Positions 1 to 349 of a stretch of DNA of 349 nucleotides are shown piece by piece. Each line of letters opens with the position of its first letter. The first letter of the stretch is position 1. The position numbers and the translations under genes are program-made. The DNA comes from Escherichia coli (GTDB lineage Bacteria; Pseudomonadota; Gammaproteobacteria; Enterobacterales; Enterobacteriaceae). The stretch lies in assembly GCF_003334765.1 (NCBI RefSeq), contig NZ_QOWT01000133.1. One strand, given 5' to 3'. A model generated the notes under the pieces. The model saw only the letters and a program-made list of their open reading frames with translations, made no database searches and was not told the origin of the DNA.

Positions 1-225
1 GCTCTGTATCACTGTATTGTCTTCCGGCAACTGATGAGGGCTGGCAGAAGTCGCCGGTGTTTCGGTAGCGTCACGTTTATCCACCACGCGGAGTGAATAA
101 CCGTTTTCAGCGACCTTGTTAATCAGTTCAATGAGATTAACACCATCGACGTCAACGACAATTCGCCCCATGTTCAGCGCCTGCACGTTAACGCTGTCGG
201 CTTCCAGCGTCAGGGCCAGTTTCAT
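1..225 (-). CDS. Hypothetical protein, N-terminal 75 codons (3' end lies beyond window position 1). Compact N-terminal segment followed by a Thr/Pro/Ala/Ser-rich low-complexity stretch. Family not recognised.
   Basis: Minus-strand ATG at complement 223-225, preceded by GGAGG with a 7-nt spacer. An in-frame TAA lies 21 nt upstream of the ATG with no alternative start codon between, so the start is well defined. The frame is open for 75 codons to the window edge: MKLALTLEADSVNVQALNMGRIVVDVDGVNLIELINKVAENGYSLRVVDKRDATETPATSASPHQLPEDNTVIQS. All three plus-strand frames hit stops within the first 100 nt (TGA 32-34, TAG 66-68, TGA 94-96). Codon choice is enterobacterial-like (CTG, GCG, GAA, AAC, CAG). 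Confidence 0.85.
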   Translation of the reverse strand, partial: MKLALTLEADSVNVQALNMGRIVVDVDGVNLIELINKVAENGYSLRVVDKRDATETPATSASPHQLPEDNTVIQS

Positions 226-349
226 TGTTTCGCCTCCGGATGCTTACCCAGAGTAATGTTATTTACTGTTCGGTAATTGTCGCGGGTCATCAGGCCGGTC
301 GCCCTGCGAGCCCGGAGGATATCGATGCTGTTTATTAACTGAGAGCGGG
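222..349 (-). CDS. C-terminal 42 codons of an upstream ORF of unknown function (5' end lies beyond window position 349). Its stop overlaps the downstream start (ATGA).
   Basis: The minus-strand frame is open from the window edge to TGA at complement 222-224: ...RSQLINSIDILRARRATGLMTRDNYRTVNNITLGKHPEAKQ*. The TGA overlaps the downstream ATG by 4 bp (ATGA). The internal ATG at complement 288-290 has no Shine-Dalgarno, so this is more likely the tail of a longer protein than a 22-codon mini-ORF. No competing plus-strand ORF exists. Confidence 0.65.
   Translation of the reverse strand, partial: RSQLINSIDILRARRATGLMTRDNYRTVNNITLGKHPEAKQ
233..237 (-). promoter_or_regulatory. Shine-Dalgarno (ribosome-binding site) for the downstream CDS, embedded in the 3' end of the upstream CDS
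   Basis: Plus-strand CCTCC at 233-237 is GGAGG on the minus strand, followed by the 7-nt spacer CGAAACA and then ATG (complement 223-225). This is a canonical core sequence and spacing. Confidence 0.75.

What the first reader, a model, noticed from the sequence alone, without database searches (positions are those of the whole stretch)
222..240. ATGA stop/start overlap with an embedded Shine-Dalgarno: translationally coupled gene pair
The upstream ORF ends ...GAG GCG AAA CAA TGA and the downstream ORF starts at the ATG inside that same ATGA tetranucleotide. The GGAGG ribosome-binding site sits 7 nt upstream, within the last codons of the upstream gene. This arrangement is typical of tightly co-expressed partners, such as subunits of one complex or consecutive pathway steps, so the two products probably function together. 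The small downstream protein may be an accessory or partner of the larger upstream one.
Basis: partly seen in the sequence, partly recalled or inferred. Interest (0 to 1): 0.3.

Follow-up and report, generated by a model that had tools for sequence, protein, structure and literature searches.

The report
CbtA toxin / YeeW-like gene junction
This is the four-base stop/start overlap between a well-known E. coli toxin gene (cbtA/yeeV family) and its usual downstream neighbour (yeeW-like, DUF5983); it is real and conserved, but already annotated and ordinary.

Summary
GGAGG is at window 237..233, followed by a 7-nt spacer. ATG is at 225..223 and overlaps the TGA at 224..222.

The upstream ORF is the 3' end of a 125-aa CbtA-family (YeeV-like) type IV toxin. 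The downstream ORF is a YeeW-like DUF5983 gene.

The window is 100% identical to three E. coli chromosomes. The gene pair occurs in 4860 of 5426 complete E. coli genomes.

ATGA alone means little: 17 of 25 control CbtA genes ending in TGA also have a start-like NTGA. The real evidence is conservation. In all 28 loci (about 12 genera) where DUF5983 follows cbtA, it starts in a 4-nt [A/G]TGA overlap behind a strong Shine-Dalgarno sequence.

Translational coupling is therefore plausible but untested. The ribosome-binding site is strong and unpaired, so independent initiation is also possible.

Functional partnership is not shown. CbtA's known partner is the upstream antitoxin CbeA. DUF5983 has no assignable fold or function, and it is often decayed next to an intact cbtA.

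In this window's locus, a ~278-nt deletion has fused the DUF5983 N-domain in frame to DUF957. The result is a 140-aa ORF.

Verdict: already known, low interest.

The parts
222..349 (-). 3' end of a CbtA-family (YeeV-like) type IV toxin gene. First full codon starts at 347. Encodes residues ~85-125, RSQLINSIDILRARRATGLMTRDNYRTVNNITLGKHPEAKQ, then the stop TGA at 224..222.
   Evidence: Translation. 100% match to L001 5751-6128, annotated 'TA system toxin CbtA family protein' WP_000854692.1. Pfam CbtA_toxin PF06755, E=5.5e-63, over residues 1-112 of 125.
233..237 (-). Shine-Dalgarno sequence GGAGG, inside codons P-E-A of the toxin's 13-residue C-terminal tail. It sits 7 nt before the downstream ATG.
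   Evidence: Sequence. Anti-SD duplex -9.5 kcal/mol. SD-like elements are present at 26 of 28 homologous junctions at <= -6 kcal/mol, against 7% of background windows. The only GGAGG on this strand of the window.
222..225 (-). ATGA: the start codon of the DUF5983-like ORF (225..223) overlaps the stop codon of the toxin gene (224..222).
   Evidence: [A/G]TGA overlap in 28 of 28 loci where DUF5983 follows cbtA: 25 ATGA and 3 GTGA.
1..225 (-). First 75 codons of a 140-codon ORF (L001 6125-6547). It comprises the DUF5983 N-terminal domain, a divergent linker, then (beyond the window) DUF957 in frame. PGAP calls it a DUF5983 pseudogene 'missing C-terminus', plus a separate DUF957 CDS that starts one base past the window.
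   Evidence: The exact 140-aa protein belongs to a 518-member 90% cluster.
58..216 (-). DUF5983_N domain (residues 4-56 of the downstream ORF).
   Evidence: Pfam PF25638, E=1.3e-28. The N-terminus MKL[AS]LT[LV]EAD.[IV]NV.ALN is conserved across genera through synonymous codon changes.
1..54 (-). Divergent linker and deletion scar. Relative to intact loci (L007, L008), about 278 nt are missing, comprising the DUF5983 C-domain and the spacer before DUF957. The alignment places the junction near window 6/5 (L001 6344/6345).
   Evidence: MAFFT alignment of 8 loci. The position of the junction is approximate because the flanking linker is poorly alignable.

Best explanation
The window spans the junction between a cbtA-family toxin gene (YeeV type, 125 aa) and its conserved downstream neighbour, a yeeW-like DUF5983 gene. 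Both lie in a CP4-44-type integrative island of E. coli.

Shown:
- The two ORFs are on the same strand and overlap by ATGA.
- A strong GGAGG lies 7 nt upstream, inside a 13-residue tail of the toxin that falls outside the CbtA Pfam domain.
- Wherever DUF5983 follows cbtA, its conserved N-terminus starts exactly in a 4-nt [A/G]TGA overlap.

Inferred:
- The two genes are co-transcribed within the cbeA-cbtA-yeeW unit.
- Ribosomes start DUF5983 at this AUG either by termination-reinitiation after reading cbtA or by direct SD-driven initiation. DUF5983 synthesis would then track toxin mRNA and, to some degree, toxin translation. I put about 0.5 on measurable dependence on upstream translation.

In this particular locus the downstream gene is a deletion derivative. 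The DUF5983 C-domain is lost and the N-domain is fused in frame to DUF957, giving a 140-aa ORF that is common in E. coli.

The biochemical role of DUF5983 is unknown. My working guess is an accessory protein of mobile elements whose N-domain is specific to the cbtA-linked form. It is not an obligatory subunit of the toxin.
For: Identity:
- 100% matches with RefSeq annotation.
- Pfam CbtA_toxin and DUF5983_N.

Conservation:
- 59 of 60 rows sampled across 4866 matching E. coli records annotate both genes under the match.
- 28 of 28 loci with DUF5983 downstream have the 4-nt overlap.
- SD energy is -8.4 against -2.1 kcal/mol in controls, Mann-Whitney p=1e-11 on non-independent loci.

Single transcription unit:
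- It is the only overlapping pair in the 10-gene array.
- No promoter-like site lies inside cbtA, and a terminator-like hairpin follows DUF957.
- The operon name yeeRST-cbeA-cbtA-yeeW is quoted in PMC7660256.

Start-site choice:
- Residues 1-18 are conserved across genera with synonymous changes.

Deletion and fusion:
-.

N-domain tied to cbtA:
- All five plasmid rows whose match starts at query residues 1-5 (N-domain) overlap a cbtA/toxin annotation.
- The rows matching only query residues ~66-163 (C-domain), and two 17-163 rows with a different N-terminal region, do not.
Against: - Coupling itself is untested. The SD and AUG are mostly unpaired in the predicted mRNA fold (z = -1.17), so there is no sign of the RBS-masking structure that makes a downstream gene strictly dependent on upstream translation.
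- DUF5983 is often decayed beside an intact cbtA, in 7 of 9 E. coli loci. This argues against a tight functional requirement.
- pN/pS of the N-domain (~0.4-0.6) is weaker than that of cbtA (~0.2).
- The promoter and terminator scans are consensus matches only.
Confidence: 0.8

Rival explanations
1. The overlap is only gene packing. DUF5983 is co-transcribed but translated independently from its own strong, accessible SD. It has no functional relationship with the toxin and is simply a neighbouring mobile-element (leading-region type) gene.
For: - The RBS is unpaired and strong.
- DUF5983 C-domain homologues occur without CbtA next to DUF932, relaxase, TraM and SLT genes. They are on 211 plasmids, of which 187 are conjugative or mobilizable.
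- CbtA subfamilies of 106-113 aa have no DUF5983.
- DUF5983 decays often while cbtA stays intact.
- Four-base overlaps are the commonest overlap class in bacterial operons (general knowledge).
Against: - The exact 4-nt overlap and an SD in the toxin's tail are kept in 28 of 28 loci, down to ~55% protein identity.
- The DUF5983_N domain was seen only in the cbtA-linked form.
- The N-domain and its start are retained even in truncated alleles.
Confidence: 0.35
2. In this strain the downstream ORF is a dead remnant. The junction is a relic of a once-functional cbtA-DUF5983 pair, and any product of the 140-codon ORF has no function.
For: - PGAP flags it as a pseudogene missing its C-terminus.
- About 278 nt, including the whole PF19419 domain, are deleted.
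- Sister alleles carry a stop that gives 64-68 aa.
- pN/pS among short forms is ~0.5.
Against: - The frame stays open for 140 codons and joins DUF957 in frame.
- The exact protein is in a 518-member cluster seen on many contigs.
- pN/pS is still below 1.
- A 2026 preprint predicts a confident homodimer for the family next to DUF5983. By position this appears to be DUF957 (10.64898/2026.06.09.728211).
Confidence: 0.25
3. The overlap is a recoding site. A programmed frameshift at the end of cbtA makes a CbtA-DUF5983 fusion protein.
For: One database protein combining CbtA, DUF5983 and ANF00264 domains is mentioned in the 2026 preprint, which also raises programmed frameshifting in this locus.
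Against: - There is no slippery heptamer at GCG AAA CAA TGA.
- There is no significant local RNA structure and no Rfam hit.
- The junction sequence varies (GAAACAATGA, GAAATGATGA, CAGTGAAG...) while only the start/stop overlap is kept.
- The downstream ORF has its own SD and start codon in every locus.
- The DUF5983-DUF957 fusions are explained by a deletion.
Confidence: 0.02

Closest known systems
cbeA-cbtA-yeeW (yeeU-yeeV-yeeW) of cryptic prophage CP4-44, E. coli K-12
   Same: - Same gene families in the same order (antitoxin, toxin, DUF5983).
- Same island gene array: Ag43, DUF905, DUF932, antirestriction, RadC, DUF987, cbeA, cbtA, DUF5983, DUF957.
- The same ATGA overlap is annotated in a K-12-type chromosome (L003, strain 3A: cbtA 1251-1625, yeeW 1622-1816).
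- The window is ~89% identical to it.
   Different: - This window is a paralogous or allelic copy. The CbtA N-terminus differs.
- The junction is GAAACAATGAAACTG rather than GAAATGATGACACTG.
- The downstream ORF stays open into DUF957 (140 aa), whereas K-12 yeeW stops at 64 aa.
Classical translational coupling through overlapping stop/start signals (e.g. trpE-trpD and trpB-trpA of the E. coli trp operon; recalled from memory, Oppenheim and Yanofsky 1980)
   Same: Same-strand genes, the stop of the upstream gene overlapping the start of the downstream gene, and an SD inside the upstream coding sequence.
   Different: Coupling in trp was shown experimentally and links subunits of one enzyme. Here no experiment exists and no complex is known.
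Three-gene toxin-antitoxin modules (e.g. toxin-antitoxin-chaperone systems with a SecB-like third gene; recalled from memory)
   Same: A third conserved gene sits in the same operon as a toxin-antitoxin pair. A large-scale survey lists DUF5983 as the partner always found downstream of CbtA_toxin (PMC10790755).
   Different: - The third gene here follows the toxin.
- It has no chaperone-like or any other assignable fold.
- It is frequently inactivated next to an intact toxin.
- It is absent from other CbtA subfamilies.
DUF5983 C-domain proteins of conjugative or mobilizable plasmids and some phages
   Same: Homologous C-terminal domain PF19419, and the same kind of neighbours such as DUF932.
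   Different: Those proteins lack the DUF5983_N domain and are not preceded by cbtA. The window's own allele has lost exactly this C-domain.

Membership tests
Stop/start-overlap translational coupling architecture | Two ORFs on the same strand whose stop and start codons overlap | tested here: met
   ATG 225..223 and TGA 224..222 on the minus strand. The same overlap is annotated in RefSeq.
Stop/start-overlap translational coupling architecture | Shine-Dalgarno sequence at functional spacing inside the upstream gene | tested here: met
   GGAGG with a 7-nt spacer, -9.5 kcal/mol against the anti-SD. Enriched over controls.
Stop/start-overlap translational coupling architecture | Arrangement conserved in homologous loci | tested here: met
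   28 of 28 loci in about 12 genera.
Stop/start-overlap translational coupling architecture | Downstream translation depends on translation of the upstream gene | not testable with these tools
   This needs a reporter with a premature stop in cbtA. The mRNA fold shows no RBS masking, so dependence is not implied by structure.
CbtA/CbeA type IV toxin-antitoxin system | Toxin with a CbtA_toxin domain (PF06755) | tested here: met
   E=5.5e-63 over residues 1-112 of 125.
CbtA/CbeA type IV toxin-antitoxin system | CbeA/YeeU-family antitoxin gene immediately upstream | tested here: met
   cbeA lies at L001 5330-5704, 46 nt before cbtA. It is outside the window.
CbtA/CbeA type IV toxin-antitoxin system | Toxicity through FtsZ/MreB, relieved by the antitoxin | not testable with these tools
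   Known for the K-12 homologues (PMC5624674, PMC5371832). Not tested for this allele.
DUF5983 (YeeW / Aec77) | N-terminal domain PF25638 | tested here: met
   E=1.3e-28 over residues 4-56.
DUF5983 (YeeW / Aec77) | C-terminal domain PF19419 | tested here: not met
   Absent from the 140-aa ORF and present in intact relatives. Removed by a ~278-nt deletion. The window's gene is therefore a truncated derivative, not a full member.
Three-component toxin-antitoxin module | Third gene obligatorily co-inherited and intact with the toxin-antitoxin pair | tested here: not met
   It is truncated, frameshifted or IS-cut in 7 of 9 E. coli loci with intact cbtA. It is absent from the 106-113-aa CbtA subfamilies.
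Three-component toxin-antitoxin module | Third protein acts on the toxin or antitoxin | not testable with these tools
   There is no functional literature. The fold is unassignable.

The most novel reading that the evidence does not exclude
The DUF5983_N domain is a toxin-linked third component of YeeV-type CbtA modules. It would be made from the same mRNA in a ratio fixed by the conserved 4-nt overlap, and it would bind or modulate CbtA (or report on its translation). That would explain why the N-domain and its overlapping start survive even when the C-domain is deleted or swapped for DUF957. CbeA is reported to act on the toxin's targets rather than on the toxin, so a toxin-binding partner would add a new layer to type IV toxin-antitoxin biology.
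Probability: 0.12. Interest if true: 0.5.

Novelty: already known. Interest (0 to 1): 0.13.

Why it matters
It matters little beyond correct annotation. The junction is already annotated with these coordinates in RefSeq, and the CbtA/DUF5983 adjacency has been reported (PMC10790755; bioRxiv 10.64898/2026.06.09.728211).

Three modest points come out of this work:
- The overlap and the SD are conserved wherever DUF5983 follows cbtA, and the N-domain seems specific to that context. This gives a cheap, testable handle on an uncharacterised gene next to a much-studied toxin.
- The 'fused or split' DUF5983/DUF957 annotations, which a recent preprint tentatively ascribed to programmed frameshifting, are explained in these loci by a deletion.
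- ATGA by itself should not be taken as evidence for coupling.

Tried and rejected
- NCBIfam gave no family for CbtA, the 140-aa ORF or DUF957. PADLOC gave none.
- PHROGs gave only families of unknown function for CbtA and the DUF5983 C-domain.
- Rfam gave nothing in the window at E<=1.
- A PDB sequence search with the DUF5983 profile gave nothing below E=0.67.
- The first AlphaFold model, from 18 sequences, was too poor to use (pLDDT 54.7). After adding trimmed representatives it reached 86.5.
- Literature searches for yeeW, DUF5983 and Aec77 found no functional study.
- Sequencing error or frameshift at 222-225 is rejected because of identical and near-identical genomes and conserved junctions.
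- Programmed frameshifting is rejected. There is no slippery site or structure, and the junction sequence varies.
- An internal promoter for DUF5983 inside cbtA was not found by the consensus scan. This is weak negative evidence.
- The plus-strand ORF across the junction (window 116..256, 46 aa) has no support and was not pursued.

Full report
**1. What is in the window**

The finding is on the minus strand. The reverse complement of window 240..222 is TCCGGAGGCGAAACAATGA.
- GGAGG occupies 237..233.
- A 7-nt spacer (CGAAACA) occupies 232..226.
- ATG is at 225..223 and TGA at 224..222.
- One minus-strand frame is open from the window edge and ends ...NNITLGKHPEAKQ*.
- A second frame starts at the ATG and stays open to the other edge: MKLALTLEADSVNVQALNMGRIVVDVDGVNLIELINKVAENGYSLRVVDKRD....

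**2. Identity**

- Megablast against 5,426 complete E. coli genomes finds three chromosomes at 100% and 37 records at >=99%. It finds matches in 4,860 genomes, with a median of 2 copies and up to 9.
- The annotation under the match is 'TA system toxin CbtA family protein' followed by 'DUF5983 family protein'. This holds in 59 of 60 rows sampled evenly down the ranking.
- In strain GF43 (locus L001; window position w = L001 position 6350 - w), the window lies in a CP4-44-type island. The gene order is Ag43 adhesin, DUF905, DUF932, antirestriction, RadC, DUF987, cbeA, cbtA (5751-6128), DUF5983 (from 6125), DUF957, DUF4942.
- Pfam confirms CbtA_toxin (E=5.5e-63, residues 1-112 of 125). It also confirms DUF5983_N for the downstream ORF (E=1.3e-28, residues 4-56).
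- The SD and the overlapping start therefore lie in a 13-residue tail of the toxin, outside its Pfam domain.
- cbtA/DUF5983 is the only overlapping gene pair in this ten-gene array. Antitoxin and toxin are separated by 46 nt.

**3. Is it more than chance?**

The tetranucleotide alone is not. Any gene ending in TGA has a start-like NTGA three times out of four. Among CbtA homologues that end in TGA and have no DUF5983 downstream, 17 of 25 carry [A/G/T]TGA, mostly followed by ORFs of 12-47 codons.

What is not chance is the combination:
- A scan of one genome per species returned 80 CbtA loci.
- Together with nine E. coli loci chosen across the identity range, 28 loci have a DUF5983 homologue downstream.
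- In all 28, the tblastn match to DUF5983 residue 1 begins at the overlap. There are 25 ATGA and 3 GTGA.
- Three of the ATGA loci read ATGATG, with two in-frame starts.
- These loci come from about 12 genera: Escherichia, Trabulsiella, Yokenella, Serratia, Kluyvera, Buttiauxella, Enterobacter, Citrobacter, Edwardsiella, Mixta, Pantoea and Superficieibacter.
- DUF5983 protein identity in these loci falls to about 55%.
- The first residues, MKL[AS]LT[LV]EAD, are kept through synonymous codon changes such as AAA/AAG and CTG/TTA/CTC. This supports the overlapping codon as the true start.
- The predicted anti-SD duplex upstream of the start averages -8.4 kcal/mol at these 28 junctions, against -2.1 at the 61 CbtA gene ends without DUF5983.
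- 93% of the junctions reach -6 kcal/mol, against 7% of windows inside cbtA. The loci are related, so the p-value overstates independence.

**4. Coupling**

The anatomy is that of classical stop/start coupling.
- No sigma-70-like site was found inside cbtA, and a terminator-like hairpin follows DUF957 at L001 6575-6601. These are consensus scans only.
- The K-12 orthologues are listed as the unit yeeRST-cbeA-cbtA-yeeW (PMC7660256).
- The predicted mRNA structure around the junction is not unusual (z = -1.17). It leaves most of the SD and the AUG unpaired.
- Nothing in the sequence therefore forces the downstream start to depend on ribosomes arriving from cbtA. Re-initiation and direct initiation are both plausible.
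- I put about 0.5 on a measurable dependence.

**5. The downstream gene here is a deletion derivative**

- Intact relatives encode a 162-163-aa protein with PF25638 (N) and PF19419 (C) domains. A separate 65-aa DUF957 gene follows 11 nt later.
- Alignment of eight loci shows that the window's lineage lacks about 278 nt, covering the C-domain and the spacer.
- In L001 and L002 the frame stays open and joins DUF957, giving a 140-codon ORF. PGAP splits this into a pseudogene plus DUF957.
- In K-12-type alleles a TAA gives 64-68 aa.
- The exact 140-aa protein sits in a 518-member 90%-identity cluster.
- Of nine E. coli loci, only two have an intact DUF5983. One is frameshifted with an internal deletion and one is cut by an IS. 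All nine cbtA genes are intact.
- Crude pairwise pN/pS is ~0.4-0.6 for the N-domain and ~0.2 for cbtA.

**6. What is DUF5983?**

- The family is small: 266 representatives at 50% identity in 1.84 billion proteins.
- An AlphaFold model built on 59 trimmed sequences is confident (pLDDT 86.5; blocks of the C-domain from residue 71 mostly 95-98).
- Distant C-domain-only homologues lie beside DUF932, relaxase, TraM and SLT genes, without cbtA.
- tblastn finds the family on 211 plasmids, 187 of them conjugative or mobilizable. In the sampled rows, only matches that include the N-domain coincide with a cbtA annotation.
- CbtA subfamilies of 106-113 aa lack both the tail and DUF5983.
- The C-domain is thus an independent mobile-element module. 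The N-domain appears tied to cbtA, and no function can be assigned.

**7. Literature**

- A survey of E. coli toxin-antitoxin loci already reports DUF5983 as the partner always found downstream of CbtA_toxin (PMC10790755).
- A 2026 preprint notes DUF5983, and an adjacent family it calls ANF00264, next to cbtA. It suggests programmed frameshifting to explain fused versus split predictions.
- By position that family appears to be DUF957, which no longer hits Pfam-A. In the loci examined here the fused form is explained by the deletion.
- CbtA's characterised partner is CbeA. Neither protein autoregulates the operon (PMC5371832).
- No functional study of YeeW/DUF5983 was found.

**8. Verdict**

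Co-expression is likely, coupling is plausible but untested, and partnership is unproven.
- The feature is an already annotated junction of a known operon, so novelty and interest are low.
- The one reading worth a bench test is that the cbtA-linked N-domain modulates the toxin (probability about 0.12).

Noticed in passing
window 225..1 (minus strand) and beyond; L001 6125-6547: The ORF that starts in the ATGA runs in frame for 140 codons into the gene PGAP annotates separately as DUF957 (GTG at L001 6350, one base past the window). Relative to intact loci, about 278 nt (the DUF5983 C-domain plus the spacer) are deleted. This explains the 'fused or split DUF5983/ANF00264' annotations that a 2026 preprint tentatively ascribed to programmed frameshifting.
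   Followed up: partly
L007 2128-2322; L001 6350-6547: The protein that PGAP names 'DUF957 domain-containing' has no hit at all in the current Pfam-A. It also has no hit in NCBIfam or PHROGs. By position it seems to correspond to the AntiFam entry ANF00264 discussed in the preprint. I could not verify this equivalence.
   Followed up: partly
L015 2884-2955, L018 2887-2958, L032 2875-2946: CbtA homologues of Cedecea, Raoultella and Hafnia end in ATGA that opens a 23-codon ORF with a conserved sequence, M..[KR].T.SRKYINTSP[ED]RLVFF. It is unrelated to DUF5983. It could be a small protein or a conserved remnant.
   Followed up: no
L033-L035, L037, L039 (about 2848-2982): Kosakonia, Enterobacter mori and related loci have a 1-nt TAATG overlap and a GGAGGG SD. 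A short ORF (19-44 aa) follows, beginning MTLALIVDADTVS. It looks like a decayed DUF5983_N.
   Followed up: no
L090 852-1421; L092 3001-3306; plasmid hits H81-H101: DUF5983 C-domain-only proteins, or versions with a different N-terminal region, sit near DUF932, NikA-like, relaxase, TraM and SLT genes on conjugative or mobilizable elements, without cbtA. This suggests the C-domain is a leading-region-type accessory module.
   Followed up: partly
L001 6575-6601 and 6606-6633: A terminator-like hairpin (11 pairs plus a T-run) lies just after DUF957. A promoter-like site lies just before DUF4942. Together they hint that the cbeA-cbtA-DUF5983-DUF957 unit ends here. These are consensus matches only.
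   Followed up: no
L010, L012, L052: Contigs labelled as Collinsella, Lachnospiraceae and Clostridiales MAGs carry CbtA genes. L010 and L012 are 89-93% identical to the E. coli query and also carry DUF5983. L052 is ~53% identical and has none. These are probably mis-binned Enterobacterales contigs.
   Followed up: no
(CbtA length against context): The 13-residue tail beyond the CbtA Pfam domain holds the SD and the overlapping start. It is present in the ~125-aa subfamily that carries DUF5983 and absent from the 106-113-aa subfamilies (YkfI/YpjF-like lengths) that do not. The tail may exist largely to host the downstream gene's initiation signals.
   Followed up: partly
window 116..256, plus strand: A 46-codon TTG-initiated ORF lies antisense across the junction. 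It has no supporting evidence and is probably spurious.
   Followed up: no
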